From Patescibacteria group bacterium (GTDB taxonomy: Bacteria; Patescibacteriota; Microgenomatia; UBA1400; PJMF01): a stretch of 64,000 nucleotides of DNA. The notes under the pieces are model-generated. The model searched no databases. It saw nothing but the letters and a program-made list of their open reading frames with translations, and was not told where the DNA came from. Every line of letters begins with the position of its first letter. The first letter of the stretch is position 1. Location of the stretch: assembly GCA_049322655.1 (NCBI GenBank), contig JBMORP010000006.1:320410-384409 (forward strand), written 5' to 3'. Positions 4,409 through 63,689 of the stretch are shown here, piece by piece. The position numbers were made by a program, and so were the translations under genes.

Positions 4409-5986
4409 ATGATTGCAACACTCTTTGCTGTTAATCTCCATTTCGGATTATATGTATTAGGTGCGTTGATTCTTTTTTCTATCGGCTGGTTATACCTTGA
4501 TTCATGGAAAAATACTCACAAGAATGGTTTTACTTTTTTTTATATTTTAGGTTATATCCTTCTGGCCATAGGCTGGCTAGGAAAAGCTGTTCAAAACACT
4601 ACTCCAGTTATTAATGCAACTGTAGAAATAGTTAATATTTTAGGATTAAATATTATTCTTTCGGGACTAATCATTGAACCACTTCTTAAGCCTCCGTCAC
4701 AAAAAAAAGTTCTTAAAATAAGCTTAGTTATCCCAGTTGCTCTACTAGGTTGGATATTTATTCCTCCAAAAATTTTATTATTAGCTGCAATCACTATTTT
4801 GTACTTAATCAAAATTAATCGTGGCTACCAAAAACAACTTAAATTTGCAGCTATTGGGTTCTTTTTATTAACCATTGCTTCTATTTTGGAACTACAAGAA
4901 CCACTAGTAAAAATTAGTAACAATGTAGTTTTGGAACAATTACTAACAAATTATGGAATTTTTTGGTATTTACATAAAATATTTTTATTTTTAGGAATTA
5001 CTAGCTTAATAGCCTGGAGCTGGAGCTACCTTAGATTTAGGTTTCAATCACAACTTTTTTTATCTCTAACAAGTGTGGTAGTAGTTATTTTTTTGACAAC
5101 GACAACTGGTTTCACCTGGTTGTTACTACGTAATTTAGAAACAACCATTTTAAGTGGCTTGAAAACAAATATCCATGTTTTTGAATATGCTTTAGAGAAA
5201 AATCAACTAGAACAACTAGCAATTAATAAAAGCATTGCTGCTAACTCACAGCTACCAGCTGCTATAAATAATGAGTTAACTCCAAACCAGATCTCAGAGC
5301 TAACCAGCCAGTTGATGTTAAACAATCAAGCTAGCTTCTTACACTTAATTAACTCTAATGGTGAAGTTGTTCATCGAGTAGAAAATGAGTCACGAAGTGG
5401 TGATTCTGTTGCTGATGAACCAATGATTAAAAAAGCTTTGGCCGGTTACTCACAAAGTGCAATTAGAATTGATCATAGTTTAATGACTCCTCAACTATTA
5501 ATTGAAGCGGCCTCACCGATCTTCGATATAGATGGAAAAAATGTTATCGGAGTAGTCAGTTCTGGCTTTAGTATTGATAACGCTTTTGTTGATGGTATTA
5601 AAGCTGTTACAAATCTAGAAACAACAGTTTTTGCTGATAAACAAAGAATAGCAACCACAATTACCGCCGAAGACGGAATAACTCGTTATCTGGGTACTAA
5701 TGAGAGTAATGGTGAAATTCTAAACCAAGTGTTGGACCAAGGTAATTATTTTTTAGGATCAACAAAAATTATTAATATTCCTTATTATGTCGCTTATGCC
5801 CCGCTAAAAGATTTAAATAGCCAACCAATTGGAATGTTAGCTGTTGGCTCACTTCAAACTAACTTAGAAAATTTGACTGCAGAATCAATCCGTTTAACCT
5901 TTGCAGTAAGTGCTGGCTTGATTGTAATTAGCGTTGCTCCTATCTATTTTTTTTCTAGAAAAATAGAAGAGTATTTAGTAACCTAA
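4409..5986 (+). CDS. Polytopic membrane protein with extracytoplasmic Cache-like sensor domain and no recognisable output domain
   Basis: About 8 predicted TM helices and then a roughly 250 aa soluble region with Cache-like features (…IDGKNVIGVVSSGFSIDNAFVD…YYVAYAPLKDLNSQPIGMLAVG…). It ends shortly after a final TM helix. Confidence 0.45.
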   Translation: MIATLFAVNLHFGLYVLGALILFSIGWLYLDSWKNTHKNGFTFFYILGYILLAIGWLGKAVQNTTPVINATVEIVNILGLNIILSGLIIEPLLKPPSQKKVLKISLVIPVALLGWIFIPPKILLLAAITILYLIKINRGYQKQLKFAAIGFFLLTIASILELQEPLVKISNNVVLEQLLTNYGIFWYLHKIFLFLGITSLIAWSWSYLRFRFQSQLFLSLTSVVVVIFLTTTTGFTWLLLRNLETTILSGLKTNIHVFEYALEKNQLEQLAINKSIAANSQLPAAINNELTPNQISELTSQLMLNNQASFLHLINSNGEVVHRVENESRSGDSVADEPMIKKALAGYSQSAIRIDHSLMTPQLLIEAASPIFDIDGKNVIGVVSSGFSIDNAFVDGIKAVTNLETTVFADKQRIATTITAEDGITRYLGTNESNGEILNQVLDQGNYFLGSTKIINIPYYVAYAPLKDLNSQPIGMLAVGSLQTNLENLTAESIRLTFAVSAGLIVISVAPIYFFSRKIEEYLVT

Positions 5987-8226: not shown

Positions 8227-9429
8227 ATGAATGACTTCCCACCAACCACCACAGTTTTAGATCTATCTGCAAAAAACCTTGATCAGCTACCTCAATGGGT
8301 AACAACCTTAAAAAACTTAAAAGTTCTATTTCTATCAAATAATAATTTTAAAAAAATTCCTCAAGAAATCAACCAATTAGAAAACCTAGAATTTCTGGGA
8401 ATGAAATCATGCCAATTAACAACCTTAGAGATTAATTCAATACCAAAAAATATTAGGTGGCTAACTTTAACTGATAATAAAATTAACAAAATTCCTAAAG
8501 ACATTGGTCAACTTGAAAAGCTTGAAAAGCTACTTTTAGCTGGGAACCAAATTACAGCTATACCTGAAGAAATCATTGATTGTAAAAACCTAGCTTTACT
8601 AAGAATTTCAGCCAATAAATTAAAAAAATCACCATTTTCCCTAATTAAAAAACTGCCAAATTTGGCCTGGTATGCTGATGCTGGCAATCCTTTTTCTTTG
8701 AAAAAAACACATCAAGAAATAAATATTCCCAAAATTAATTGGGCAGATATAAAAATTAAATCAATGTTGGGAGCAAGCGCTCAAAATAAAATTTACCAAA
8801 CCTCAGTTAAAGGCCTAAAAGATGAAGTGGCAATCAAAATCTTTGGCAGTAAAATCAGCAGTGACGGTTACCCACAAGATGATTTAATCATTAGTATCTT
8901 AGCTGGCAAACATCCTAACATTATTGAGACACTTTTTGAAATAACTGACGAACCAACTAACAAATTTGCTATCGCTCTAAAAAAAATAGACAAAAAATTT
9001 TTAAACTTGGGTTTCCCTCCCAGTTTTGCTACTTGCTACCGCGATACATTTGCCGAAAATCAAAAATTTACAAGTAACTTTATTTTAAAAGTATTACAAC
9101 AGGTTAGTTCTGCTTATACACACCTACATCAACTAGGAATCATGAATGGAGATTTATATGCTCACAACATTTTAACAAAGCCAAATGGAGAAACCTACCT
9201 TGGTGATTTTGGAGCTGCTTCTTTATACGATAAAGATCTCGAACCAGAAAGAGAAGCAATTGATGTTAGAGCCTTTGGTTTTTTGATTGCAGACTTACTT
9301 GATCATACTGCAGCAGTAGAAACAGAAAATTACCACAAATTAGAACACCTCAAAAATCTTTGTTTAGCAACAGAAATAAATAAAAGACCAACTTTCAAAA
9401 AAATTAATTCAATTTTAAAAAATATTTAG
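8227..9429 (+). CDS. Leucine-rich-repeat protein fused to a eukaryote-like Ser/Thr protein kinase domain (cytoplasmic, no signal peptide)
   Basis: The N-terminal half has about 6 LRRs (LxxLxLxxNxLxxIP: LKNLKVLFLSNNNFKKIP, LTLTDNKINKIP, LLLAGNQITAIP…). The C-terminal half has a beta3 VAIK motif (VAIKIF), a catalytic loop NGDLYAHNIL (HRD-like D and N retained) and DFG (LGDFGAA). Confidence 0.65.
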   Translation: MNDFPPTTTVLDLSAKNLDQLPQWVTTLKNLKVLFLSNNNFKKIPQEINQLENLEFLGMKSCQLTTLEINSIPKNIRWLTLTDNKINKIPKDIGQLEKLEKLLLAGNQITAIPEEIIDCKNLALLRISANKLKKSPFSLIKKLPNLAWYADAGNPFSLKKTHQEINIPKINWADIKIKSMLGASAQNKIYQTSVKGLKDEVAIKIFGSKISSDGYPQDDLIISILAGKHPNIIETLFEITDEPTNKFAIALKKIDKKFLNLGFPPSFATCYRDTFAENQKFTSNFILKVLQQVSSAYTHLHQLGIMNGDLYAHNILTKPNGETYLGDFGAASLYDKDLEPEREAIDVRAFGFLIADLLDHTAAVETENYHKLEHLKNLCLATEINKRPTFKKINSILKNI

Positions 9430-18109: not shown

Positions 18110-21100
18110 TTACTCAGCTAATTCTTCCTCTTTTTGTTCAACTAACTTAGCTCGTTTACCAGACAATCCTGCCACCAAAACTAGTGATATAAAAGTTAAA
18201 ACTACTATGGTTAAAGATGCCAACGCTATTATCTCTGGTAAATAAACAACTAATAATGAATTATCACCAACTGGAACTTGCCATAAATTAGCCCAATTAT
18301 TTAACCTTAAATGTTGAACTAGTTTTTTATTTTGCCAATCAATTCCCAACCACAAATCATCATAAGTTTGATCAATGCCAACGAAACAAGGTGCCTGTTC
18401 ACATCTATAATCAATCTTAAAAATAGAATCAAGATATTTTTTGTCTTGCTTAGTAGTCAAGTTATTAGTTAACTGACTAAAATCACTATTTTTTAAAGTA
18501 ATTTGAGCTAATCTTTTTAATGGTAATGGTTGAAGTTGAATTTTTTCTAATGCATTCATACTTTCTTTACCAAAAGATCTAGTCTCCCAGTTAATGCTAA
18601 AGATATCTCTAGCATCAGTAGTAACTTGACCTAAAGTAATAAATAAATCAAAAACATTTTTTTGTTCTAAATAATCTTCTGGCAAAATATTACGATTACT
18701 ATAATTAATAAAAAACTTAGTTCCCCGACCTTGGTAATTTCTACCAGCAACTCTCATTACATAAGAATAAGCAGCTGAAACATCTTTAAAAGTATAACCA
18801 TTACAATTTACGGCTCGATCTTTTGCCTGATAAATTACTTTATTATCAGTAATAACTGTTTCAATTTCACCAATTTCTCCAGTTACACAATTAATCGATG
18901 GATTCTTAGTTAGATCAACATTCAACGTGGGAAAAATTGAAATTAACCCCAAGGCTCTTATTTCGTGCGTATCTAAAACAACTTCTTTAGTCAACTCAGA
19001 CCAATTTGGAGTAAAAGTAAATAGTTCAGTTGTATCAAATAATAAACCACTCACCGCTTCAGTTTGATTATAATCAAGTTCTTCAGGCTTAGGGGCGTAT
19101 TCAACCTTAATCTCCTCTCCAACCTCAAACTCAATAATAGGAAAAACAGTTTCACCTTTTTGTACTATCACGCCAAAATCATTAAAGAAAACAACCATTT
19201 CATTGGGTATAGTTTCATCTGATAAGGAAAACTCAAAATTTTCTAATTTTGCTAAATCTATTTGCTGTTTCTCTGTTAATAAAACATAGTGAGGAAAATC
19301 AACTGTCACCTTTCGATCTTGATAGCTAATAGTGGCTGGCAGCAAGTATTGATCGTCAGTCAAAGCAGGGATGGTTAACTGATAATTATCTTGCTTAAAA
19401 TACTTCCATACCTTGGCATTATTTTCCTCAAAAATAACATCTGTTAAACGGTGAGACATTAAATCTGCAAAAGGGTAAACTAAATCTGCTTGATCAGTTA
19501 GCACATAGTCTCCAATTTGTTGATAAATAAAGTCTGTTCTCACTCTTTCGGTATCACCAGTAACAAAACTCAATTTTGCTGGTACCAAAACCTCAGCTTC
19601 TTTATTGGGTGCTTGTCGTTCATAAATTGTTAAAAAATCTTGTTGCCAAACCTGTTTAAAACCAGCCTTAGTTAATAGTTCTTTTGTCTGCTCAAGATCA
19701 TGATCACGACTAGGATCAACTCTAGTTTCGTCAATAATTACTAAATCAACATTATATTTTCTGGTCATTAGTGAAAATTGTTCTGTGTCAGCAGCGTCTA
19801 AAACATGTTTTAGTTCATAGTAAAAGAAATCAGATGTCTCTACCCATCGGTCAGAATCACGATTTAAAAAAGCCTGAGGAAAACCAAAAAAATAAAAACC
19901 CATACCTTGATAACCATTCTCTTCAGCCAAAAATTGCCAATCATAGAGCTCCCAACCAGCGTGAGTAAACTGAGGCAGCTGCAAAATTCTCAAATCTTTA
20001 TCACGAGTTTTTAAATAGTCAAACATAACCCAGTATTGATCTGGGTACTTAATTTGTAATTTTTCACTAATAAAATGTCCTTGAAATGATGGCCAAGCAA
20101 CTACAAAAGGACTAATATAAATAGTAAAAAAAATTAGTACTGCTAAAAATCGAGCAAAAAATTTTAATTTTTGCAGATTAACTAAAAATAAAACAGTTTT
20201 TTCTACTACAGTAATAAATAAAATAACTGACACAAAAGAATAGAGAATGGAAAGTTTGGTGAATGGATTACGAAAAGCTTCTCTAAAAGTTGGAGATTGG
20301 TAAAGTTGGTCTAGTATTCTATTGGTTGGCAATAAATCAATCCAAACGAACACCAAACAAAAAATATAGAACAATAAAACAGCCCAACGTCGCCAACTTT
20401 TATCTTGAGCAAAAATAGTCACCACAAAACCAAACAAAGTAATCACCCCAAGAGTTTTCATTAAATAGATTACAATTGGTTGATTTAAATGATCTTGCCA
20501 TTCATTAAAGATTAATTCATGTTTTTTAGTAGAAAAATTATAATCCTGCCAGGTAAAAAGATAGTGCTTGCCACTAGTTAAATTTTCAATCGTGCCAGCC
20601 TCACGAATACTCCACACTGATTCTGGAGCAAATAATTGGTTGTCTCGACTTTCTTGAACGTAGTGAGCATTGTGAAAACTATAATAAAGATTAGGTAAAA
20701 TCCAATAAGAATTCGCAAAAAAAGTAATTAAACCCACCAAAAAACCATATTGAATAGCTTTAACTATCTTATGTTTTTGTAAGGTAAGAAAAAAAGCATA
20801 AAGCAAAGAAAATATCACAGCTAAATAAAAAACAGTTTGAGTGTGAGCACTAGGAGCAATTAAAAACTGTAATAATAAAAAATAAAGAATAGACTTAGCA
20901 GTAATTTTTTCTAGTAAAAAGTGAATACTTAATAATAGAAACGGTAAAAAAGCAAACTGCACCATAAACATTTCAAAACTGATGTAGAACTGCTGTAAGG
21001 TGAGAATGTGAAGTAAGTAAAAAACAGCTCCTAAACTGGCCAACCATGATTGCCAAAACTTGTTTTTATCATTTAACCAAACACATTTTAGGTAAAAATA

Positions 21101-21448
21101 AATACCAACTCCACCAACTAAAAACATTAAAAAGATAAACACTAATCTTAAGTTAGCCACTGGTACAAATAAACTTAACAAAAAAATCAATGGTAAACGA
21201 AAAATCTCTGCTAGTTGCCCTTGAGCAGATGGAGCACCCAAACTTTGGTGTTCACTCCAAGCTCCAAAAAAAACTTGCCTAGCATACTCAATTAGGTCAA
21301 ATTCAGGATGAACATTATCCCAGCCAGAATAAAACCAACCCCATTTGATATTAACTAAGGCCGTAGTGACAGCAGTAGCAATTACTACTAATAATGGCAG
21401 CGAATTCCACAAATTCTTTATGGTAAAAATTTTCAAAAAATTTTTCAA
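18110..21448 (-). CDS. Large polytopic membrane protein (about 14 TM, then an extracytoplasmic domain of about 500 aa and a C-terminal TM), possibly a GT-C/YfhO-like glycosyltransferase
   Basis: 1112 aa. The architecture resembles YfhO/ArnT-like GT-C enzymes, but the family assignment is inference only. Confidence 0.5.
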   Translation of the reverse strand: MKNFLKIFTIKNLWNSLPLLVVIATAVTTALVNIKWGWFYSGWDNVHPEFDLIEYARQVFFGAWSEHQSLGAPSAQGQLAEIFRLPLIFLLSLFVPVANLRLVFIFLMFLVGGVGIYFYLKCVWLNDKNKFWQSWLASLGAVFYLLHILTLQQFYISFEMFMVQFAFLPFLLLSIHFLLEKITAKSILYFLLLQFLIAPSAHTQTVFYLAVIFSLLYAFFLTLQKHKIVKAIQYGFLVGLITFFANSYWILPNLYYSFHNAHYVQESRDNQLFAPESVWSIREAGTIENLTSGKHYLFTWQDYNFSTKKHELIFNEWQDHLNQPIVIYLMKTLGVITLFGFVVTIFAQDKSWRRWAVLLFYIFCLVFVWIDLLPTNRILDQLYQSPTFREAFRNPFTKLSILYSFVSVILFITVVEKTVLFLVNLQKLKFFARFLAVLIFFTIYISPFVVAWPSFQGHFISEKLQIKYPDQYWVMFDYLKTRDKDLRILQLPQFTHAGWELYDWQFLAEENGYQGMGFYFFGFPQAFLNRDSDRWVETSDFFYYELKHVLDAADTEQFSLMTRKYNVDLVIIDETRVDPSRDHDLEQTKELLTKAGFKQVWQQDFLTIYERQAPNKEAEVLVPAKLSFVTGDTERVRTDFIYQQIGDYVLTDQADLVYPFADLMSHRLTDVIFEENNAKVWKYFKQDNYQLTIPALTDDQYLLPATISYQDRKVTVDFPHYVLLTEKQQIDLAKLENFEFSLSDETIPNEMVVFFNDFGVIVQKGETVFPIIEFEVGEEIKVEYAPKPEELDYNQTEAVSGLLFDTTELFTFTPNWSELTKEVVLDTHEIRALGLISIFPTLNVDLTKNPSINCVTGEIGEIETVITDNKVIYQAKDRAVNCNGYTFKDVSAAYSYVMRVAGRNYQGRGTKFFINYSNRNILPEDYLEQKNVFDLFITLGQVTTDARDIFSINWETRSFGKESMNALEKIQLQPLPLKRLAQITLKNSDFSQLTNNLTTKQDKKYLDSIFKIDYRCEQAPCFVGIDQTYDDLWLGIDWQNKKLVQHLRLNNWANLWQVPVGDNSLLVVYLPEIIALASLTIVVLTFISLVLVAGLSGKRAKLVEQKEEELAE

Positions 21449-21554
21449 GTTATCTCATTTTAAACCAGAGTTAACTTGATTTTATAGGGACAATTTTAAA
21501 AAAAGCTTCCAAAATTACAATTCAAAAGAAACAAATGTTTATTTCCTTTGGATT

Positions 21555-21581
21555 GTCGGTGGGGCTTGTGACCCCACCGAC
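21555..21581. other. Perfect 10-bp stem / 7-nt loop hairpin (GTCGGTGGGG-cttgtga-CCCCACCGAC) at the left edge of the GC-rich island
   Basis: Seen directly in the sequence. It sits 20 nt downstream of the stop of the 21602-22459 minus-strand gene. There is no U-run, so it is not a canonical intrinsic terminator. Confidence 0.5.
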
Positions 21582-21601
21582 AGGTAAAACAGGGTGAGAA
21601 G

Positions 21602-22459
21602 TTACGGAGCGTTGACGTTCGTGTGCAAAAGCACCCAGCCGAACTCGGTCGTATGCCGGTAAATGCCATAACTGCCATCGTTAATGTCCAAGAGGACAAC
21701 AATGGAAATCGGACACCCTTGGATGCCGCAGTTATCATAGCGATGACCAGCGTCGATGTCTTCCTCCAAGTGAATCTGGGAGAAAAAGCCGCCGTGACCA
21801 ACGGGAATCGGATAGCGCATAACTTTCACGCGCCCGGGATGCTCGGTGATGAACGACACCGGTGTGTTTCCATCACCTGGCATATCATAATTCCCGCGCA
21901 TCAACAGGGTGTAGTTGGTGTTTTCAGTCGCCTCAAAATCGAGGCGGAAAGATTCACCTTGGGCGTTCTGCAACGTGATTGTTGCCTGAGGAAACGTAAC
22001 CTTCATGTAACCCTCTTCAGGGAGCAAGTAGGTTGCGGTGTGATTTTCCATCAGGTTGTCAACCTGCGCGCCGCCATGCCAAACGGCAGATGGATTGGCA
22101 GCCGCTTCTTCTTCATTGTCTGCACCGATAACGCCTGGGTCGGCTAACATCCAGTTGGCGCTGTTCAAGGTGCTGGTGTTTTCAGGCTGAATAATACCAG
22201 CCCAACGAACAGGAGTGGTATCTCCGGGCACACCCCAGATACTCACACCCACCCGACTGATGTCGGGCCTGCCATCATCCGCGCTGACAGGATGGTCTTC
22301 AGCCTCAGGAGGTTGAGCCTCCACCTCTTCAGCAGGAGCAACCGCATAAGGCGGGTTGTCCCAGTAAAAGGTAAAGCCATTCTCATCGGCATGAAAACCA
22401 CAAGCTGAGAGCAGGAAGGTGGCAACAATAAGGAGTGAAAGAACACTTGCGTGTTTCAT
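21602..22459 (-). CDS. Lipoprotein of unknown function, inside the GC-rich island
   Basis: Signal peptide with lipobox LLSAC-G; 285 aa at about 55-62% GC. A strong SD (AAGGAGG) is 8 nt upstream. Confidence 0.6.
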   Translation of the reverse strand: MKHASVLSLLIVATFLLSACGFHADENGFTFYWDNPPYAVAPAEEVEAQPPEAEDHPVSADDGRPDISRVGVSIWGVPGDTTPVRWAGIIQPENTSTLNSANWMLADPGVIGADNEEEAAANPSAVWHGGAQVDNLMENHTATYLLPEEGYMKVTFPQATITLQNAQGESFRLDFEATENTNYTLLMRGNYDMPGDGNTPVSFITEHPGRVKVMRYPIPVGHGGFFSQIHLEEDIDAGHRYDNCGIQGCPISIVVLLDINDGSYGIYRHTTEFGWVLLHTNVNAP

Positions 22460-22588
22460 GGGTTTGGTCCTCCTTTTCTTTTATAAGAGCTTAGAGCGGA
22501 CCAGGTGCTCAGAGCTCAGGTAGGTGTACTCCCCAATCACGGGGAGCCAGAAGGGTTGAGGTATTGTTTCACCAGATTTCTCTGGTTA

Positions 22589-22637
22589 ACTCACTCAAAG
22601 AAAAACCTATCTTCATAAAGTTTCTCTTTGAGTGAGT
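22589..22637. repeat. Inverted repeat (13 bp perfect, ACTCACTCAAAGA / TCTTTGAGTGAGT, extendable to about 18 bp) with a 23-nt spacer
   Basis: Seen directly in the sequence; it lies in the intergenic region of the GC-rich island. Confidence 0.55.
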
Positions 22638-22944
22638 CACAAACCACAACATCTTCTTTTCCATAAAAAAGAAAAGTTTTATTAATTTCTCACCTGTTAA
22701 AGAGCAACTACTTGAAGTAGTTACCATGCTGAAAAAAGTTTTGTTCGCTTGAGCCAAGCGAGGTGCTTGGTTAGCAATTAAAGCTCCTCAGCTCAAAATC
22801 CTGGTAAGACTTTGAGCTAGGGACCTTCTTTAAAGTTTTTTAATAGTTCATACAAGGTCAAATTGTAGCAGTAAATGTCTTGTTTGTCAATATTATAGGA
22901 CTAATTTATATAATTTTTATCATAAACTTGATTTGTTAAAGGTA

Positions 22945-22981
22945 AATGCTCCACTCGTCTTTCTAAGAAAAGTGGAGCATT
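22945..22981 (-). terminator. Hairpin (11-bp perfect stem AATGCTCCACT/AGTGGAGCATT, 15-nt loop) downstream of the small lipoprotein gene; putative terminator
   Basis: It lies 23 nt past the stop of the 23004-23297 gene on the minus strand, and a partial U-tract follows. Confidence 0.45.
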
Positions 22982-23003
22982 ATTTGATGATGAAAGAAGC
23001 CTC

Positions 23004-23297
23004 TCACCGTGAAGGTGTGGCTGATGGAACAACCTGCTTGGTTGGAGCAGGGGTAGGTGCGTGAGCGGCATCGTAAGCCGCCTGAGCAACCTGCAAAGCA
23101 GCTTCAGCTGCCTCCACCTGCTTGTGAGCATTATAAAGCTCACAAGCAGGACCAGTCATTCCAGCATCCATGCACTCCACAGCGAGCGCTCCCATCATCT
23201 GTTGATATTCAGAGTCGCTCTTTCCTCCGCACCCAGTAATTAACAGGGCGGAAACGAGCAACAGTGAAACCAACGTGAGGATAGACCGCTTGGTCAT
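23004..23297 (-). CDS. Small lipoprotein of unknown function, inside the GC-rich island
   Basis: 97 aa with signal peptide plus lipobox LITGC-G; Ala/Gln-rich mature part with 2 Cys. SD GGAGG is 5 nt upstream; about 60% GC. Confidence 0.5.
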   Translation of the reverse strand: MTKRSILTLVSLLLVSALLITGCGGKSDSEYQQMMGALAVECMDAGMTGPACELYNAHKQVEAAEAALQVAQAAYDAAHAPTPAPTKQVVPSATPSR

Positions 23298-23446
23298 TTT
23301 TCCTCCAAAGATGGCATCAGCAGTTTTGAATTTGACTGTTAGAAGTTTTTCCAGGCAAACCTAGAAACTTCTTTCAGCCAGCTACTGACACTCGTAGTAT
23401 AACAAAATACCTCAAAATAGTCAATTATTATAGGATAAATTTTTAG

Positions 23447-24850
23447 CTACTTACGTCTCACCTCATAGCTATACAAATGACTTAAGAAAATAGCTGGAGG
23501 ATCTTCCAACAAAAACTGTTGAAACTCCTGGTACAAAGCTTTGCGTTCTTCTTGATCAATGGTTTTTCTAGCTTTCTCCAGTAAACTATCAATTCTCGTG
23601 TTTTTATATCTAGTAAAGTTAGTCGGTTGATCTGAGTGCCACAAAAAGTATTGATCAGGGTCTAGTGGTGACTCTTGACCTATTAATAGTAATTGAAAAT
23701 CATTGGTATCTGGAAAGCTACTAACTTTAAGATTAACTTTAATCTCCAAAAAAGCACAAAGTTCTTTATCTTCTACCTCTTTGGCAACTTGACATTCACC
23801 AATCGCTTTTTTACCAAGTTCAGACCATTGCTCAATAATATTCTCGGCTTCTTGTTCAAAAGTTTGAGTGGTAATTAAGTTCAGCTCCATTGGTTGCCTA
23901 GGCAAATCATCAAGCAATCTTTCCACAGCCCGATCCAAATTTTTTTCATAAGTTTTTCCACCTTCTAGGTAAGCCCATGAAGTAGGATCAATTGGTCCTC
24001 TAGCCTGAGTTCCATCGTCAACTGTTCCCAAAGCATAAGATAAAGCCTGACGAACATTTTTAGTCATTAATGGATCAGCATTGTTAAAGAAAACAGCCAG
24101 GTAACGATTGGTTTGGAGTCGTTCAGTTATTTCCACGTTTGGCCAATCTTTTAAATCTTCTGGGTCAGCTAAATCAGGAATAATATCTATTTCTCCTCTT
24201 TTAAAAGCATTAATTAAATCAGTTTCAGTGAGATAAAAACGATAAACTAGTTTTTTTTCTGGAGTTTCAATCACCAACTCTTCTAAACGATTCCCTTTTT
24301 TTTGGTAATCAGTAATTCTAGTATTACCAATACCAATCAACGTCGGACGACTAAAAAACCATAAATAACTCTCAATTCCCTGACGGAAGACAGGTTCAGC
24401 TAACACACTCGGAAATGGTGAAAAAGAGTCTGGCAACTTGAACACCAGGTCATTGGGGGTAGCAACTGTCTCAACATCAACAAACTGGTAGTTAATATCT
24501 TCAGGTAGAACTTCTTTACCATCTTGCCAAAAAATATCTTTTTTCAAAACAAAACGATATTGTTTACCATCATCTTCAACCACCCAACGCTGAGCTAAAT
24601 AAGGTTTAACTTCTTTATTTTCTGTTATCTGAGTCAAACCAGCACTTAACTGATTCTTAATTTCATTAGGCAAAGTATTAATAGTAAAACTGCCGATCAT
24701 CCCAATATATTCCTTGGGTTTAAAAGTAATTCGATCAACCAAAAAAGGAATGAAGAGAGAAAATACAACAATTGCTCCAACCAGTGAAGCTACTAAAATC
24801 CAACCATGTTTTTTGGCATAAGCAGTTAGATACCAATAAAAACGTCTCAT
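23447..24850 (-). CDS. Solute-binding protein family 5 (peptide/oligopeptide/nickel-type ABC SBP), membrane-anchored
   Basis: N-terminal TM anchor and SBP_bac_5-like regions (…DGKQYRFVLKKDIFWQDG… QYFLWHSD…). Confidence 0.55.
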   Translation of the reverse strand: MRRFYWYLTAYAKKHGWILVASLVGAIVVFSLFIPFLVDRITFKPKEYIGMIGSFTINTLPNEIKNQLSAGLTQITENKEVKPYLAQRWVVEDDGKQYRFVLKKDIFWQDGKEVLPEDINYQFVDVETVATPNDLVFKLPDSFSPFPSVLAEPVFRQGIESYLWFFSRPTLIGIGNTRITDYQKKGNRLEELVIETPEKKLVYRFYLTETDLINAFKRGEIDIIPDLADPEDLKDWPNVEITERLQTNRYLAVFFNNADPLMTKNVRQALSYALGTVDDGTQARGPIDPTSWAYLEGGKTYEKNLDRAVERLLDDLPRQPMELNLITTQTFEQEAENIIEQWSELGKKAIGECQVAKEVEDKELCAFLEIKVNLKVSSFPDTNDFQLLLIGQESPLDPDQYFLWHSDQPTNFTRYKNTRIDSLLEKARKTIDQEERKALYQEFQQFLLEDPPAIFLSHLYSYEVRRK

Positions 24851-41629: not shown

Positions 41630-41953
41630 TTATTTGCCCATACGAATACGAGCAACTGTAGCGGCGACACCAGTGACAACAGTGCCAACTGACATTGCAA
41701 TACCTTGAGCATCAAGCCCAGTATCAACTACTTCATGAGTGACTACACCATCACGTTTAACGATGGCACTAGCAGTAGCATCACTCTTAGCTTTACAGTT
41801 GGTATTTTGACCATACTGTCCAGTTGTTTCACAAACAACTTCTGCATTAGCGTTGGCTTCAACTTGCACTTCATCAGCGTAAGCTTTGGCAACAACACCA
41901 TTTAACATTACTGCAGCAACTGCTACAGCAACGAGTGATTTGACGATTTTCAT
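41630..41953 (-). CDS. Small secreted Ala/Val/Thr-rich protein with two Cys (unknown function)
   Basis: Signal peptide ending AKAYA-DE; 107 aa. Locally elevated GC (about 48%) suggests high expression or foreign origin. Confidence 0.5.
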   Translation of the reverse strand: MKIVKSLVAVAVAAVMLNGVVAKAYADEVQVEANANAEVVCETTGQYGQNTNCKAKSDATASAIVKRDGVVTHEVVDTGLDAQGIAMSVGTVVTGVAATVARIRMGK

Positions 41954-42165
41954 GCGTCTCCTTTTTTGAGTCCCATGTTCTGTTAAGCCTGATTTACCTT
42001 TTTAGAAGTAAATCAAAAGGGACACGATTCAACCCACTGTAGGGCTGCACACTGTTACTATTTTTTTTAGAATAATAAAAATATTTTACTATTCTGATAT
42101 ATTATGATAACTTAAGAACATCCTTTTGTCAATAGTTATAGGGACGTTATATCAGGAAACATTTT

Positions 42166-61166: not shown

Positions 61167-62354
61167 TTAAATAATACTACTTTTAATTACTTTAGCTATT
61201 TTTTCTGCCAATAGCACTGGTACAGCATTCCCAATTTGTTTGTACATATTGCCAATGCTCCCATAAAATATAAAGTCATCTGGGAATGTTTGAATTCTAG
61301 CACACTCTCTAACTGACATCCTCCTTTTTTTGTTTGGATGTATCTCAGGACCTGTAGCGGTAATTGTATCGCTAGGCCTATCCCAATTACTAATTCTAAG
61401 AGATTGCTCAAATTTTATTTCTTTTAGTTCCAACTCAGTAACTTGTTTATCATATTTATCATCGAAACCAAGTAGTTTTTTTAACTCCCACCAATCTTCT
61501 GGCTTGGGAATACTTCCAGAGTTATTATCTTTCCTAAACCAATGTCCGGCTGTATGACTATACCCAAAATATTCATCAACTTTTTTAGTAGAAATTCCCT
61601 TTTTGTTTCGCCAGTATTTAAGATAATCACAAATATCGTGTTGATTAACTTTATGTTTTCTTCCCCAAAAGGTGTCGTGAACATTGGTTCTTGCAACATG
61701 ATTATGAATTAATTTATTTCCAATTTTAAAAGACTCATCTCTAGTTCTAATACTTTCTAGATCACCAACAACATCTTTAACACTAATATGTTTATTTTCA
61801 TGAGTTTTTCTGGGGAAAGGATTCTTCACTCCAATTCTATTACCAATAATAATAACTCTTTCTCTCTGTTGAGGCACACCATAGTCAGCAGAATTAATCA
61901 ATTTATAATCAACTACATAACCCAATTTTTTGAAATCATTAACTATCATTTCAATAACTTTGCCTTTGTGCATTGATAACAAGCCTTTTACATTTTCGGC
62001 TAGAAAAAACTTTGGTCTCTTATTATCAATTATTCTAAGCATTTCTTTGTATAAAAAATTTCGCTCATCTTTCATTGATCTTTTGCTATTAGCTATAGAA
62101 AAACCTTGACAAGGAAAACCACCCAATAAGATATCAAAACCATTAGGAATCTTCGAGTTATCAATCTTTGCTATATCTTCCAAAATAATATGGTCACCAA
62201 TGTTCTTCTTATAGGTTTCAACTGCTTCTGGAAAAAAATCATTGGCCCAAATTATTTCATAGCCGGCATTTATAAAACCCAAATCTAAACCACCACAACC
62301 AGAAAAAAGACTCAAAACCTTCGGTCTATTACTACTCTTTTTATTCATGATCAT
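61167..62354 (-). CDS. DNA (cytosine-5)-methyltransferase
   Basis: Motif I FSGCGG, motif IV GFPCQGFS (catalytic Cys), motif VI ENV (FLAENVKGL), motif VIII QRER; 395 aa. Confidence 0.9.
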   Translation of the reverse strand: MIMNKKSSNRPKVLSLFSGCGGLDLGFINAGYEIIWANDFFPEAVETYKKNIGDHIILEDIAKIDNSKIPNGFDILLGGFPCQGFSIANSKRSMKDERNFLYKEMLRIIDNKRPKFFLAENVKGLLSMHKGKVIEMIVNDFKKLGYVVDYKLINSADYGVPQQRERVIIIGNRIGVKNPFPRKTHENKHISVKDVVGDLESIRTRDESFKIGNKLIHNHVARTNVHDTFWGRKHKVNQHDICDYLKYWRNKKGISTKKVDEYFGYSHTAGHWFRKDNNSGSIPKPEDWWELKKLLGFDDKYDKQVTELELKEIKFEQSLRISNWDRPSDTITATGPEIHPNKKRRMSVRECARIQTFPDDFIFYGSIGNMYKQIGNAVPVLLAEKIAKVIKSSII

Positions 62355-62444: not shown

Positions 62445-63689
62445 TTAACCAAACATCAACCATTCCGGTTTGAATAATAACAATAAGCCAATAATCAACA
62501 TCAAGACGCCTCCAATTAGGTGAGAAAATCTGGCATATTTACCTTGAATGCCAGTGACTCGAAGTGTAGTCATAGCCAAGAAAAAAATTAACAAATCGTC
62601 CAACATGAAAATTAAAATATACAATAATAAATAAAAGTAATATTGGATTGGTGATAAGCCTGATAAACTCAAAATTTGAGTATAAATTGCTGGTAAACCA
62701 GCAGAACAAACCAACTCAATCAAGTTTACACTTACCGCCAACACCATAATTCCAAGCACTGCCATTAATAAACTACGATTACTAATTACCTGTTTTAACT
62801 TATTAAAAAAATTACTTTTTTCTTTACCTCCGGTAACTTGACAAGCACCATCTTTATTGACCATAAAATCATACAAATAATAGCCGCCAGCACCCAACGC
62901 AATTAAACCAACCAATAATTTAACCCAACTCACCACTCCCAAAAATAAAAATAAATTCAACCAAGCTGCTAAAAATAAAAAGTAAACGGTTGCCGAAGCA
63001 AAAATAAATGCTCCACCCAAAATCAACATCTTTTTTCTATCTTCCATACCCAACAACAAACTAATTAGAAACAATAATGTCCACATGGCGCAGGGATTAA
63101 AACCATCCACTGCCGCTAACAAAATAGTAATGATTGGCAAAGAAAAAGTTTGGGGATTGATCTCTCCCAAAATAGGTAATTTAATTTTTTCAACATTTAA
63201 AGTTGTAGCAGTCGCTTCTATTTTTGGAGGTTTTTCTACAGATGGTTGTGGACTTTTTACTTGTTCAAGCAAAATAACTTTAGCTTGATCAACCAAGTCA
63301 TAATACTCACTAGCATCTGTTTGATAAGCAGTTAAAATATCAATAATTTTTCGGTCGGTAATTCCTTCAGCATAACCCACCACATATTGATCACCAATTA
63401 CTGTAAAAGGAACTCCTCCCACATCAGCTTGAAGCAACAAACTGGTTTGGTACATCAACTGACTGTTGTTTTGATTTTTATAAATTTCGTATTGTTTAAT
63501 TTCTAAATTAGGAAATTTTTTTATTACTTCCCGTTCCAAAAATTCCTTCTCTTTGGCACAATGAGGGCAACCCTCACCATAAAACAAATATAAAGTAATT
63601 TTGGCAGCTGGCTGCTGAGCAAGAGTTGGTTGTGCAAAAATAACCAAACCCAACAACATCAAAACCAAGAAAAATAATTTTTTTAACAT
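62445..63689 (-). CDS. Thiol:disulfide interchange protein: N-terminal thioredoxin domain (CPHC) fused to a CcdA/DsbD-like transmembrane domain
   Basis: Signal peptide and YGEGCPHCAKEK, then 6 TM with conserved membrane cysteines (NPCAMW, ELVCSAG). Confidence 0.65.
   Translation of the reverse strand: MLKKLFFLVLMLLGLVIFAQPTLAQQPAAKITLYLFYGEGCPHCAKEKEFLEREVIKKFPNLEIKQYEIYKNQNNSQLMYQTSLLLQADVGGVPFTVIGDQYVVGYAEGITDRKIIDILTAYQTDASEYYDLVDQAKVILLEQVKSPQPSVEKPPKIEATATTLNVEKIKLPILGEINPQTFSLPIITILLAAVDGFNPCAMWTLLFLISLLLGMEDRKKMLILGGAFIFASATVYFLFLAAWLNLFLFLGVVSWVKLLVGLIALGAGGYYLYDFMVNKDGACQVTGGKEKSNFFNKLKQVISNRSLLMAVLGIMVLAVSVNLIELVCSAGLPAIYTQILSLSGLSPIQYYFYLLLYILIFMLDDLLIFFLAMTTLRVTGIQGKYARFSHLIGGVLMLIIGLLLLFKPEWLMFG

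What the first reader, a model, noticed from the sequence alone, without database searches (positions are those of the whole stretch)
21480..23450. Compositionally foreign ~1.8 kb island encoding two lipoproteins, flanked by hairpins
Sampled 60-nt windows inside 21.6-23.3 kb are 53-62% GC, against roughly 25-35% in the immediately flanking genes and about 42-45% even in conserved core genes (rpoD, map). Both encoded proteins (285 aa and 97 aa) carry lipoprotein signal peptides with lipoboxes (LSAC, ITGC). Both genes have perfect GGAGG Shine-Dalgarno sites, which are weak or absent for most native genes here. The island is bounded by a perfect 10-bp hairpin at 21555-21581, has internal structured elements (22589-22637, 22945-22981) and is followed by another imperfect hairpin near 23343-23372. 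This pattern suggests recent horizontal acquisition from a high-GC donor, possibly the host of an episymbiont, or alternatively an assembly chimera. The overlapping ORFs in the track (21496..21801, 21623..22147) are GC-induced artefacts.
Basis: seen in the sequence. Interest (0 to 1): 0.75.

Follow-up and report, generated by a model that had tools for sequence, protein, structure and literature searches.

The report
GC-rich, hyper-structured surface-lipoprotein expression island
Two surface-lipoprotein genes in an AT-rich, probably ultra-small (CPR-like) bacterium are GC-rich not because they came from a high-GC donor, but apparently because their mRNAs are built to fold very tightly, and the whole 1.85-kb unit, including a previously undescribed structured leader RNA, is swapped among related lineages.

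Summary
Two minus-strand lipoprotein genes (285 aa, 97 aa) are 53-54% GC in a 34.9% GC window. Their GC3 lies 5.6-7.5 SD above 57 other genes, and they carry the only GGAGG Shine-Dalgarno sites among 60 genes.

A chimera is unlikely: independent assemblies from other samples reproduce both junctions. Recent import from a high-GC donor is not supported. Homologues sit at the same kind of locus in at least eight AT-rich lineages, down to 25-36% protein identity, and nearly all keep the GC excess.

Three new findings:
- **RNA structure.** The block 21.3-23.55 kb is the most RNA-structured stretch of the window (z to -9.3). The coding sequences fold far better than dinucleotide or synonymous-codon shuffles (z -4.3 to -10.5; controls +1.1 to -3.4).
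- **Leader RNA.** A conserved ~260-nt five-helix leader, absent from Rfam, precedes the 285-aa gene.
- **Exchange.** One lineage has dS 2.1 in the flank but 0.03 in the 285-aa gene. Another, ~96% identical in the flanks, carries a non-homologous but equally GC-rich, structured lipoprotein.

Best reading: a high-expression, stable-mRNA surface-lipoprotein cassette in a hypervariable envelope locus. The function is inferred, not shown.

The parts
23396..23440 (-). Promoter of lipo97: a conserved TCCTATAAT box, then -35 TTGACT, a 17-nt spacer and an extended -10 TGtTATACT.
   Evidence: Promoter scan gives 10/12 plus TG, among the six best in the 64 kb. The box and both hexamers are conserved in L002 and L005. 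Identity to L032 begins exactly here.
23298..23389 (-). 5' leader of lipo97 (~92 nt if the predicted promoter is used). It has a hairpin near its 5' end (23333-23380) and a GGAGG SD at 23302-23306.
   Evidence: Inverted repeat I5; SD survey. The 300-nt windows 23101-23400 and 23251-23550 have z of -7.8 and -4.4. The transcription start is inferred, not measured.
23004..23297 (-). lipo97: a 97-aa lipoprotein (lipobox LITGC). It is 54.1% GC and holds a 17-bp hairpin inside the CDS (23117-23150).
   Evidence: ORF and lipobox. GC. Fold z -6.55 with 200 dinucleotide shuffles and -8.3 against synonymous-codon shuffles. Orthologues are P0154 (98%), P0155 (91%) and the L005 protein (60%). L002 carries a non-alignable small lipoprotein at the same position.
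22945..22981 (-). Hairpin after lipo97, probably its terminator.
   Evidence: Inverted repeat I4. An equivalent hairpin with a different sequence occurs in L005.
22862..22900 (-). Promoter of lipo285: TCCTATAAT box, -35 TTGACA, 17-nt spacer, extended -10 TGcTACAAT.
   Evidence: 11/12 plus TG, the best sigma-70-like match in the whole window. The box is invariant in W, L002 and L005, and variants occur upstream of the distant homologues in L013 and L020.
22575..22840 (-). Conserved structured leader RNA inside the ~395-nt 5' UTR of lipo285. It has five helices and invariant unpaired CUCUUUAACA and GAAAUAUAAA stretches.
   Evidence: RNAalifold on three leaders. Covariance model R1 finds full-length matches upstream of distant homologues: L013, L025 and L014 at E about 1e-8 to 1e-6, L009/L011/L012 at 8e-8, L020 at 0.014. 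95.3% of cells are paired and 44 of 62 pairs show changes on both sides, against 35-48% and 11-17 in slid controls. No Rfam family matches. No conserved ORF. Window 22501-22800 has z -9.3.
22469..22473 (-). GGAGG Shine-Dalgarno of lipo285, within AAAAGGAGGA.
   Evidence: AAAGGAGGA is invariant in W, L002 and L005. AGGAG-type SDs are kept in all GC-rich homologues and absent in the GC-poor L016 homologue.
21602..22459 (-). lipo285: a 285-aa lipoprotein (lipobox LLSAC), 52.9% GC. It has a disordered tether (residues ~22-70) followed by a beta-sandwich domain.
21521..21582 (-). Two tandem hairpins after lipo285: a GC-rich one (21554-21582) and an AU-rich one with a T-run (about 21521-21553). Probably the terminator.
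   Evidence: Inverted repeat I7. Both hairpins are kept with compensated sequences in L002 and L005. Window 21301-21600 has z -9.2. Identity to L032 ends at the start of the first hairpin.
21585..23440 (-). The recently exchanged tract, i.e. the island as an evolutionary unit.
   Evidence: Against L032 and L033 the flanks are 0.70-0.88 identical and this tract is 0.90-1.00 identical. dS is 2.12 in SBP5 against 0.03 in lipo285 and 0.19 in lipo97.
18110..21448 (-). Neighbouring 1112-aa polytopic membrane protein, the usual partner of the lipo285 family. It lies outside the GC island at 31.8% GC.
   Evidence: Adjacent or one gene away in L002, L005, L010, L013/L024, L016 and L027. Not adjacent in L020; missing in L022 through a deletion or assembly joint. 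It has at least 9 TM segments in the first 450 aa plus a C-terminal TM, and an invariant YSGWDN.H.EF motif after TM1. No Pfam, NCBIfam or PDB match. A GT-C-like role is inferred only. In L030 it is replaced together with lipo285.

Best explanation
The block is a native, self-contained expression island for two surface lipoproteins. It sits in a hypervariable cell-envelope locus of an AT-rich, monoderm, CPR-like bacterium.

Each gene is its own transcription unit. Each has a near-consensus extended -10 promoter behind a shared TCCTATAAT box, a structured 5' leader, a perfect Shine-Dalgarno site that is otherwise absent in the region, a GC-rich coding sequence and a hairpin terminator.

The GC excess is not a donor signature. 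It goes with, and most likely results from, selection for dense base pairing in the mRNA. Synonymous sites are arranged so that the sense RNA folds far better than chance.

The inferred purpose is a long-lived, heavily translated message for abundant surface proteins, as in S-layer genes. The ~260-nt conserved leader would act as a stabiliser or a regulatory element.

The island and the larger lipoprotein-plus-giant-membrane-protein cassette are exchanged among related lineages by recombination whose break points lie in conserved island ends. This gives allelic and even non-homologous replacement.

**Shown:** composition, signals, RNA-fold excess, leader covariation, mosaic ancestry. **Inferred:** high expression, mRNA stability, surface abundance, and why the locus varies.
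For: **Not a chimera.** L001 is identical over both junctions.

**Old and widespread.**
- Same synteny in L002 and L005, whose housekeeping proteins are 84-89% identical to the window's and whose synonymous sites are near saturation.
- The GC excess of the homologue recurs in L010, L013/24/25, L020, L026 and L027. The gene is 0.47-0.60 GC against 0.29-0.44 for its neighbours.

**No drift back toward the genome's composition in the window's lineage.** Implied GC3* is 0.54 for lipo285 against about 0.27-0.3 for the directly adjacent genes.

**RNA structure.**
- CDS z-scores are -4.3 to -10.5 in nine GC-rich homologues, and -4.0 to -6.9 in three of four small-lipoprotein alleles.
- 13 same-locus control CDSs give +1.1 to -2.6. 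9 E. coli CDSs at similar GC give +0.2 to -3.4.
- Synonymous-codon shuffles give z of -5 to -8.3.
- The consensus fold of three orthologues has z -10.5, with 15 compensatory pairs against 0-4 in slid controls.
- The sense-strand MFE is lower than the antisense MFE in 12 of 12 sequences tested.
- In the window-wide scan, the four most negative of 425 windows all lie in the locus, and all 14 consecutive windows from 21301 to 23550 have z <= -2.5, with flanks near 0.

**A natural control.** The only GC-poor homologue (L016) has z -0.75, no SD and no leader.

**A property of the slot, not of one protein family.** In L030 a non-homologous lipoprotein in the same position, behind the same leader, is 55% GC with z -4.8 and -5.9.

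**Signals.** Best promoter and only GGAGG SDs in the window.

**Leader RNA.**

**Exchange.**

**Precedents.** S-layer mRNAs have 14-15 min half-lives, attributed in at least two Lactobacillus strains to long structured 5' UTRs, plus codon bias (PMC3666127). Structured coding sequences lengthen functional mRNA half-life (PMC6883848).
Against: - No expression, half-life or proteomic data exist. High abundance is inferred only from the signals.
- The leader is very structured at only 36-40% GC, so structure alone does not require 53% GC.
- Part of the GC1/GC2 excess is simply amino-acid composition. The family-wide GARP/FYMINK ratio is about 1.26 against 0.63 for the background.
- The L030 allele of lipo97 is GC-rich (56%) but not unusually structured (z -0.7), so GC and structure can be uncoupled.
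- Antisense strands also have negative z (-2.2 to -7.4), and in 2 of 12 sequences the antisense z exceeds the sense z. A DNA-level role for the palindromes is therefore not excluded.
- Frequent recombination at the locus makes GC-biased gene conversion a live contributor.
- The z-scores rest on thermodynamic prediction and small shuffle sets (16-20, and 200 for lipo97).
- The consensus CDS structure was derived from the same sequences on which pairs were counted.
Confidence: 0.55

Rival explanations
1. Recent horizontal acquisition from a high-GC donor, for example the host of an episymbiont, with the composition still reflecting the donor.
For: Atypical GC, GC3, amino-acid composition and SD usage. 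The island does move horizontally.
Against: - All homologues whose DNA context was read lie in AT-rich genomes at the same kind of locus.
- The GC excess persists across lineages whose synonymous sites are saturated.
- The promoters, the SD and a leader RNA conserved across these lineages belong to the unit.
- Only the coding sequences are GC-rich; the promoter, leader and spacers inside the exchanged tract are AT-rich.
- No amelioration signal in the window's lineage.
- No integrase, tRNA or direct repeats at the ends.
- Codon usage is not that of a typical 50-55% GC donor: TTG is the commonest Leu codon and CTG is only 16%.
Confidence: 0.04
2. GC-biased gene conversion. Because the locus recombines unusually often, repair bias has driven its GC upward, and the RNA structure is incidental.
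For: Strong evidence of repeated recombination exactly at this tract. The GC excess occurs in non-homologous genes occupying the slot. The L030 lipo97 allele is GC-rich without excess structure.
Against: - The leader, promoters and spacers lie inside the same exchanged tract but stay at 34-37% GC.
- Gene conversion does not predict sense-strand fold excess or a non-random arrangement of synonymous codons.
- The adjacent big gene, replaced together with the lipoprotein in L030, is 29-32% GC.
- The size of the effect (+30 points of GC3) is, from my recollection of the bacterial gBGC literature and not checked here, far larger than reported effects.
Confidence: 0.15
3. Translational codon selection alone. 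The genes use 'optimal' C-ending codons because they are highly expressed, and GC3 rises as a by-product.
For: Third positions shift from A (0.31 to 0.11) to C (0.11 to 0.34). AGA, ATA, TTA, CTA and GTA are avoided. The same preferences recur in orthologues.
Against: - Ribosomal-protein, RpoA, HU and IF-1 genes of a genome that carries a homologue show no such preference. C/(C+T) at two-fold NNY codons is 0.19 in those genes against 0.47 in the lipoprotein gene.
- Shuffling synonymous codons while keeping codon usage still destroys the fold excess, so codon order matters as well as codon choice.
Confidence: 0.1
4. A DNA-level recombination device, as in Borrelia vls. GC-rich palindromic DNA promotes gene conversion or cassette exchange for antigenic variation.
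For: A GC-rich surface-lipoprotein locus in an AT-rich genome, with inverted repeats and recombination, as in vls (49.1% against 28.6% G+C; PMC11499132). Antisense strands also fold better than chance. One break point lies at a hairpin.
Against: - No GC skew: the coding strand has G equal to C.
- No silent or partial copies in the 64 kb.
- Exchange is between lineages, not within a genome.
- The sense strand folds better than the antisense in 12 of 12 sequences by MFE.
Confidence: 0.08
5. Assembly chimera: a piece of a higher-GC organism joined into this contig.
For: Sharp compositional boundaries.
Against: An independent assembly from SRR32167788 is identical across both junctions. Orthologous loci with the same order occur in at least six further samples. 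The promoter box and leader tie the genes to the locus.
Confidence: 0.02

Closest known systems
Borrelia vls antigenic-variation locus (vlsE and silent cassettes)
   Same: A surface-lipoprotein locus about 20 points richer in G+C than an AT-rich genome. The excess is conserved across species and attributed to selection rather than foreign origin. It is associated with inverted repeats and recombination (PMC11499132).
   Different: Here there is no GC skew, no silent cassette array in the window, and no head-to-head arrangement. Variation arises by exchange between lineages and by replacement with non-homologous cassettes. The excess structure is stronger on the sense RNA. The proteins are unrelated.
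S-layer and other abundant surface-protein genes with stabilised mRNAs (e.g. Lactobacillus slpA)
   Same: Strong promoters, a long structured 5' untranslated leader, distinctive codon usage and a monocistronic unit with a strong terminator. The literature links these to 14-15 min mRNA half-lives (PMC3666127).
   Different: Here the structure extends through the whole coding sequence and coincides with a large GC shift. The products are small lipoproteins, not S-layer lattice proteins. Expression and half-life are unmeasured.
Hypervariable surface-structure loci replaced by recombination in conserved flanks (O-antigen, capsule or teichoic-acid-type cassette switching)
   Same: Conserved flanks (93-99% identical) around non-homologous central cassettes that include glycosyltransferases (L030). 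Ancestry of the centre and the flanks is discordant.
   Different: The cassette core is a lipoprotein plus a ~1100-aa uncharacterised membrane protein rather than a polysaccharide gene cluster. A smaller sub-unit, the two-lipoprotein island, is exchanged separately. That this kind of switching is typical of O-antigen and capsule loci rests on my own knowledge.
Cis-regulatory leader RNAs and riboswitches (Rfam)
   Same: A conserved multi-helix RNA with covariation, always between a promoter and one gene family.
   Different: No match to any of 4227 Rfam families. No ligand, terminator/antiterminator switch or SD-sequestering helix could be demonstrated.
Classical genomic island acquired by HGT
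   Same: Compositional contrast with sharp edges, and a horizontal history.
   Different: No mobility genes, tRNA or direct repeats. It is present at the same locus in all relatives read. The donors are relatives. The composition is not drifting toward the genome's.

Membership tests
Foreign genomic island from a compositionally distinct donor | Composition atypical for the host genome | tested here: met
   GC 53-54% against 34.9%; GC3 5.6-7.5 SD above the other genes.
Foreign genomic island from a compositionally distinct donor | Absent from close relatives, or present only patchily | tested here: not met
   A lipoprotein island occupies the same slot in all relatives read: L002, L005, L029-L033. 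The alleles differ.
Foreign genomic island from a compositionally distinct donor | Closest homologues lie in a donor clade of matching (high) GC | tested here: not met
   Every homologue with readable DNA sits in a 30-44% GC background. The 215 family representatives could not all be placed.
Foreign genomic island from a compositionally distinct donor | Ongoing amelioration (excess of GC>AT changes) | tested here: not met
   In the window's lineage, S>W 12/60 against W>S 15/63, giving GC3* 0.54. The L005 lineage does show an AT bias, GC3* 0.32. This is a parsimony count at near-saturated sites.
Foreign genomic island from a compositionally distinct donor | Mobility genes, tRNA target or flanking direct repeats | tested here: not met
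   No integrase or transposase ORF in 18-25 kb. The nearest tRNAs are at 12.3 and 28.3 kb. No repeats of the island elsewhere in the window.
Bacterial lipoproteins (Lgt/LspA substrates) | N-terminal signal peptide ending in a lipobox [LVI][ASTVI][GAS]C | tested here: met
   LLSAC (lipo285) and LITGC (lipo97). LLLSAC in the L030 replacement protein. 57 of 153 family representatives have a lipobox-like motif.
Bacterial lipoproteins (Lgt/LspA substrates) | Lgt and LspA encoded in the genome; lipid modification | not testable with these tools
   Neither enzyme was found among the window genes scanned. The rest of the genome is not available.
Borrelia vls-type antigenic variation | High G+C relative to the genome, in a lipoprotein locus | tested here: met
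   compare PMC11499132.
Borrelia vls-type antigenic variation | Strong GC skew of the coding strand | tested here: not met
   Coding strand G 0.26 and C 0.26; skew about 0.
Borrelia vls-type antigenic variation | Adjacent array of silent cassettes | tested here: not met
   No partial DNA or protein copies in the 64 kb. The rest of the genome is unseen.
Stabilised-mRNA surface-protein genes (S-layer type) | Strong promoter, long structured 5' UTR, biased codon usage | tested here: met
   Best promoter in the window. A ~395-nt leader with a conserved structure. Distinct codon usage.
Stabilised-mRNA surface-protein genes (S-layer type) | Exceptionally long mRNA half-life and very abundant protein | not testable with these tools
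   No expression data are available.
Known structured RNA families (Rfam 15) | Score at or above a family's gathering threshold | tested here: not met
   Only tRNAs in the window. The permissive scan of 21400-23500 gives only generic hairpin hits far below threshold.
Cassette-type hypervariable envelope locus | Conserved flanks with a non-homologous centre in close relatives | tested here: met
   L030 is 95-96% identical to W 28515-22453 and 18112-15635, but between them carries lipo238 + GT2 + big1078. There is no homology to lipo285, and big1078 is 26% identical to big1112.
GT-C glycosyltransferases (for the neighbouring 1112-aa protein) | Sequence or fold match to a GT-C family | tested here: not met
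   No Pfam, NCBIfam or PDB sequence match. Only topology and an acidic motif after TM1 are suggestive. No structure was predicted for this protein.

The most novel reading that the evidence does not exclude
These bacteria use a previously undescribed way to express variable surface lipoproteins. It is a portable expression cassette in which a dedicated ~260-nt structured leader RNA and a deliberately GC-rich, rod-like coding sequence together form one large functional RNA.

The fold of that RNA, not just the encoded protein, would be under selection. Possible purposes are extreme mRNA longevity in cells with very few ribosomes, regulated translation on host contact, or resistance to host or phage RNases. 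Any lipoprotein gene dropped into the slot would evolve the same RNA architecture.
Probability: 0.3. Interest if true: 0.85.

Novelty: new variant of a known kind. Interest (0 to 1): 0.68.

Why it matters
- **Composition is not proof of foreign origin.** Here a textbook HGT signature is a stable, selected property of a gene slot. The best predictor of it is RNA folding, as with rRNA and tRNA genes in AT-rich genomes.
- **A testable natural system.** It allows the question of whether bacteria tune whole coding sequences for mRNA structure. It comes with built-in controls: a GC-poor, unstructured homologue that has also lost the SD and the leader, and a non-homologous gene that has converged on the same architecture.
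- **New elements.** It adds an undescribed structured leader RNA and two uncharacterised protein families. One is a 215-cluster lipoprotein family. The other is a ~1100-aa membrane-protein partner.
- **A candidate interface.** It identifies a hypervariable, horizontally exchanged surface locus in CPR-like bacteria. Their cell-surface interactions with hosts and phages are poorly understood, and this locus is a candidate for those interactions.

Tried and rejected
- **Protein annotation.** Pfam, NCBIfam, PHROGs and PADLOC scans of both lipoproteins, the L030 replacement protein and the big membrane protein gave nothing beyond signal-peptide noise.
- **PDB sequence searches.** A single-sequence search with the big protein and a profile search with the lipo285 family (A2) both returned no hits.
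- **Homologue searches.** The word-indexed profile search with 50 sequences added almost nothing. The GTDB scan gave only 3 loci, titled 'uncultured Pseudomonadales', a label contradicted by gene content. The 50-sequence alignment was too diverse for the locus finder.
- **Antisense overlapping gene.** Rejected: the frame is not conserved.
- **Leader peptide in the 5' UTR.** Rejected: no conserved ORF.
- **Ordinary translational selection.** Rejected as the sole cause.
- **Polarised substitution counts among the closest relatives.** Too few changes, and recombination confounds the outgroup, so I treat the result as inconclusive.
- **L005 against L022.** These turned out to be the same sequence plus a deletion or assembly joint, so they were not usable for polarisation.
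- **Literature.** A full-text search for GC-rich lipoprotein genes, HGT and codon usage in Patescibacteria found nothing relevant.

Full report
**1. The observation**

The window is 34.9% GC. With 300-nt windows (mean 0.349, sd 0.051), the only places above 0.50 are 21551-22551 and 22951-23351. These coincide with two minus-strand ORFs:
- lipo285 (21602-22459): 52.9% GC, GC by codon position 0.59/0.43/0.57.
- lipo97 (23004-23297): 54.1% GC, GC by codon position 0.62/0.51/0.49.

The neighbours are 31.8% GC (a 1112-aa membrane protein, GC3 0.22) and 35.8% GC (SBP_bac_5, GC3 0.26). Across 57 other genes GC3 is 0.264 +/- 0.040 with a maximum of 0.351, so the two genes lie 7.5 and 5.6 SD out.

The island is not uniform. 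The 544-bp spacer between the genes is 36.9% GC and the outer intergenic regions are 34-35%.

Both proteins have lipoboxes. GGAGG lies upstream of exactly these 2 of 60 genes, and 49 of 60 have no SD-like tetramer at all. The overlapping ORFs are composition artefacts.

**2. Not a chimera, and not a recent import from a high-GC donor**

An independent Logan assembly (L001, SRR32167788) is 100% identical over 8.5 kb spanning both junctions.

Orthologues at 78% and 72% protein identity (L002, L005-L008) lie in the same order: RecA, RNase Y, SecG, SBP_bac_5, small lipoprotein, lipo285, ~1100-aa protein, C39_2, and on to sigma-70. Housekeeping proteins of these genomes are 84-89% identical to the window's. 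Third positions of conserved codons are only 50-63% identical, which is near saturation. The orthologues are nevertheless still 51.6% and 47.6% GC.

More distant homologues (25-50% identity) nearly all repeat the pattern:

| Locus | Homologue GC / GC3 | Neighbouring genes GC / GC3 |
|---|---|---|
| L010 | 0.47 / 0.43 | 0.30 / 0.21 |
| L020 | 0.54 / 0.62 | ~0.39 / 0.34 |
| L013, L024, L025 | 0.56 / 0.58-0.60 | 0.39-0.40 / 0.34-0.41 |
| L026 | 0.60 / 0.66 | 0.44 / 0.50 |
| L027 | 0.53 / 0.60 | 0.36 / 0.34 |

The single exception is the L016 clade (0.40 / 0.24), which is below its neighbours.

In the window's lineage, lineage-specific third-position changes are balanced: S>W 12/60 and W>S 15/63, implying GC3* of 0.54. 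The adjacent genes imply about 0.27-0.3, matching their present GC3.

An exhaustive HMM search shows the family is larger than first seen, with 215 cluster representatives at E <= 1e-3. It has no Pfam or NCBIfam model.

**3. The genes and their context**

The homologue is adjacent to, or one gene from, a ~1090-1114-aa polytopic membrane protein in L002, L005, L010, L013/L024, L016 and L027. The more distant loci add Mannosyl_trans2, GT4, GT2 and C39_2 genes. It is not adjacent in L020 and is missing in L022.

That protein has at least 9 TM segments in its first 450 residues, a C-terminal anchor, and an invariant YSGWDN.H.EF motif after TM1. It matches no family or solved structure. A GT-C-like glycosyltransferase role is therefore only an inference.

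The window's other genes include FtsEX with an M23 peptidase, FemAB, a Mur ligase, DUF4012, PMT_2, GT2, GT4 and RNase Y. They fit a monoderm, CPR/Patescibacteria-like organism, not the 'Pseudomonadales' label on three related MAGs. The taxonomy was not determined directly.

**4. Expression signals**

What first looked like a shared box is a promoter:
- lipo285: TTGACA, 17 nt, TGcTACAAT. This scores 11/12 plus TG and is the best match in the 64 kb.
- lipo97: TTGACT, 17 nt, TGtTATACT. This is among the top six.

Each is preceded by TCCTATAAT. The box and hexamers are conserved in L002 and L005, and variants lie upstream of the distant homologues in L013 and L020.

Hairpins follow each gene and are kept with compensated sequences in the orthologues. 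The two genes, and the big gene after them, therefore look like separate transcription units.

AGGAG-type SDs are retained in all GC-rich homologues and are absent in L016.

**5. A new structured leader RNA**

The spacer is not junk. Between the lipo285 promoter and start codon lies a ~395-nt leader, and its core (22575-22840) is far more conserved than synonymous sites of neighbouring genes.

RNAalifold on three leaders predicts several helices with 18 compensated pairs. A covariance model built from those three finds full-length matches directly upstream of distant homologues:
- L013 and L025: E 3e-8.
- L014: E 8e-7.
- L009, L011 and L012: E 8e-8.
- L020: E 0.014.

It finds nothing elsewhere in the window at E < 0.1 on that strand.

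On the six-sequence alignment, 95.3% of cells pair and 44 of 62 pairs have changes on both sides. Slid controls give 35-48% and 11-17, and 0 of 500 shuffles reach the observed values. The alignment was fitted to the model, which inflates these numbers somewhat.

No Rfam family matches, and there is no conserved ORF.

**6. The coding sequences are hyper-structured**

Folded as RNA, lipo285 has z = -7.2 and lipo97 has z = -6.55 against dinucleotide shuffles.

| Sequence set | z-score range |
|---|---|
| Eight further GC-rich homologues | -4.35 to -10.5 |
| Small lipoproteins of L002 and L005 | -4.0 and -6.9 |
| GC-poor L016 homologue | -0.75 |
| 13 control CDS segments from the same loci | +1.1 to -2.6 |
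| 9 E. coli genes of similar GC | +0.2 to -3.4 |
| Lipoprotein CDSs against synonymous-codon shuffles (protein and codon usage kept) | -5.0 to -8.3 |

A codon-aligned consensus fold of three orthologues scores z = -10.5, against -1.5 to -4.7 for three control genes. It has 15 compensatory pairs against 0-4 in slid controls.

The sense strand has the lower MFE in 12 of 12 sequences tested. It has the more negative z in 10 of 12. This favours an RNA-level over a DNA-level structure, but does not prove it.

In a scan of all 425 overlapping 300-nt windows on the minus strand (mean z -0.74, sd 1.56), the four most negative all lie in this locus: -9.3, -9.2, -7.8 and -7.1. All 14 consecutive windows from 21301 to 23550 are <= -2.5, and the flanks return to about 0.

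**7. Codon usage**

Third positions shift from A to C (A 0.31 to 0.11, C 0.11 to 0.34). AGA, ATA, TTA, CTA and GTA are avoided.

Ribosomal-protein, RpoA, HU and IF-1 genes of a genome carrying a homologue do not share this. C/(C+T) at two-fold NNY codons is 0.19 in those genes against 0.47 in the lipoprotein gene. Ordinary translational selection is therefore not a sufficient explanation.

Part of the GC1 and GC2 excess is amino-acid composition that is typical of the whole family.

**8. The island is exchanged among relatives**

The search with lipo97 found closer genomes.

*L032 and L033.* The flanks are only 78-83% identical to the window (SBP_bac_5 dS 2.12). The tract from the promoter box (23440) to 17 nt past the lipo285 stop codon (about 21585) is 90-100% identical in 150-nt windows: lipo285 98.6% with dS 0.03, lipo97 94.9% with dS 0.19, and the leader 94.6%.

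*L030 and L031.* The flanks are 93-99% identical (dS 0.05-0.13), yet the lipo97 promoter region is 77% identical and lipo97 itself 88% (dS 0.42).

*The L030 replacement.* In L030 the segment lipo285 plus the big gene (W 22453-18112) is replaced by three genes:
- A non-homologous 238-aa lipoprotein.
- A GT2.
- A 1078-aa protein only 26% identical to all other 'big' proteins.

The replacement lipoprotein sits behind the same leader. It is again GC-rich (55%, GC3 0.62) and hyper-structured (z -4.8 and -5.9), whereas its GT2 and big neighbours are 28-29% GC with z of -0.4 to -1.4.

The horizontal history is therefore real, but the partners are relatives. The GC-rich, structured architecture belongs to the slot rather than to one protein family.

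Gene-wide dN/dS is 0.12-0.16, which indicates purifying selection more relaxed than in housekeeping genes (0.05-0.06).

**9. Interpretation**

The most coherent reading is a portable, high-expression cassette for surface lipoproteins. Its mRNAs would be selected for dense secondary structure and hence for stability.

There are two precedents:
- S-layer gene mRNAs have unusually long half-lives, attributed in at least two Lactobacillus strains to long structured leaders, and they also show codon bias (PMC3666127).
- Structured coding sequences extend functional mRNA half-life (PMC6883848).

The nearest known compositional analogue is the Borrelia vls locus. There a lipoprotein system is kept at 49% G+C in a 28.6% genome by selection (PMC11499132). 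The present locus lacks GC skew and silent cassettes.

GC-biased gene conversion may contribute, given the recombination. It does not explain why only the coding sequences are GC-rich, nor the fold excess.

Three observations remain unexplained:
- The leader achieves z of about -9 at only 40% GC, so it is unclear why the coding sequences need 53%.
- The L030 lipo97 allele is GC-rich but not structured.
- What the proteins, the leader and the big membrane protein do is unknown.

High expression and mRNA stability are inferences from sequence, not measurements.

Noticed in passing
L022:6700-6960 (compare L005:10812-14182): A 609-kb JGI contig is 100% identical to L005 up to 50 nt before the lipo287 stop codon. 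It then jumps 3.37 kb, skipping the whole ~1087-aa gene, and continues at only 97.6% identity. This is either a natural deletion plus recombination or an assembly joint between two strains.
   Followed up: partly
L018-L020 and L010, L016 (NCBI MAGs GCA_964466145.1, GCA_964609285.1 and others): The record titles call these MAGs 'uncultured Pseudomonadales bacterium'. Their gene content (RNase Y, monoderm-type envelope genes, 30-41% GC) does not fit that label and looks CPR/Patescibacteria-like.
   Followed up: partly
window 5101-5400, 41851-42150 and 63151-63450 (minus strand): Three further 300-nt windows fold much better than shuffles (z -6.0, -5.2, -5.2) with no Rfam hit. The one at 41.9-42.15 kb lies in an intergenic region that also holds an 11/12 promoter match at 42132.
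   Followed up: no
L016:8607-9734 and L017: In one clade the lipo285 homologue is GC-poor (GC3 0.24, below its neighbours at 0.40-0.50). It has no SD, no leader RNA (90-nt spacer), no fold excess (z -0.75), and a long Glu/Lys-rich N-terminal insertion. The whole set of features appears to have been lost together.
   Followed up: partly
window 18110-21448 and homologues: The ~1100-aa membrane protein has an invariant YSGWDN(I/V)H.EF...QVFFG.W motif right after its first TM segment and no match in Pfam, NCBIfam or PDB. It comes in at least two classes that are only 26% identical to each other: W-type and L030-type.
   Followed up: partly
L002:5018-5434: At the position of lipo97, L002 carries a 138-aa lipoprotein that cannot be aligned with lipo97. 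It has the same build: a lipobox, a Cys-containing helical part and a Pro/Thr-rich tail. This suggests very fast turnover or another replacement.
   Followed up: no
window 22480-22560: About 34 nt of GC-rich sequence (GAGCTCTGAGCACCTGGTCCGCTCTAAGCTCT) just upstream of the lipo285 SD is an insertion specific to the window's lineage relative to L002 and L005. It accounts for the GC-rich look of the proximal 5' UTR.
   Followed up: no
window 8227-9429 and 61167-62354: A leucine-rich-repeat protein fused to a Ser/Thr kinase domain, and a C-5 cytosine DNA methyltransferase, both unusual-looking in this small-genome context.
   Followed up: no
window 21449-21520: The big gene has its own promoter-like CCCTATAAAAT box, resembling the TCCTATAAT box of the two lipoprotein genes, and a TTG start. 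The box is only partly conserved in L002 and L005.
   Followed up: no
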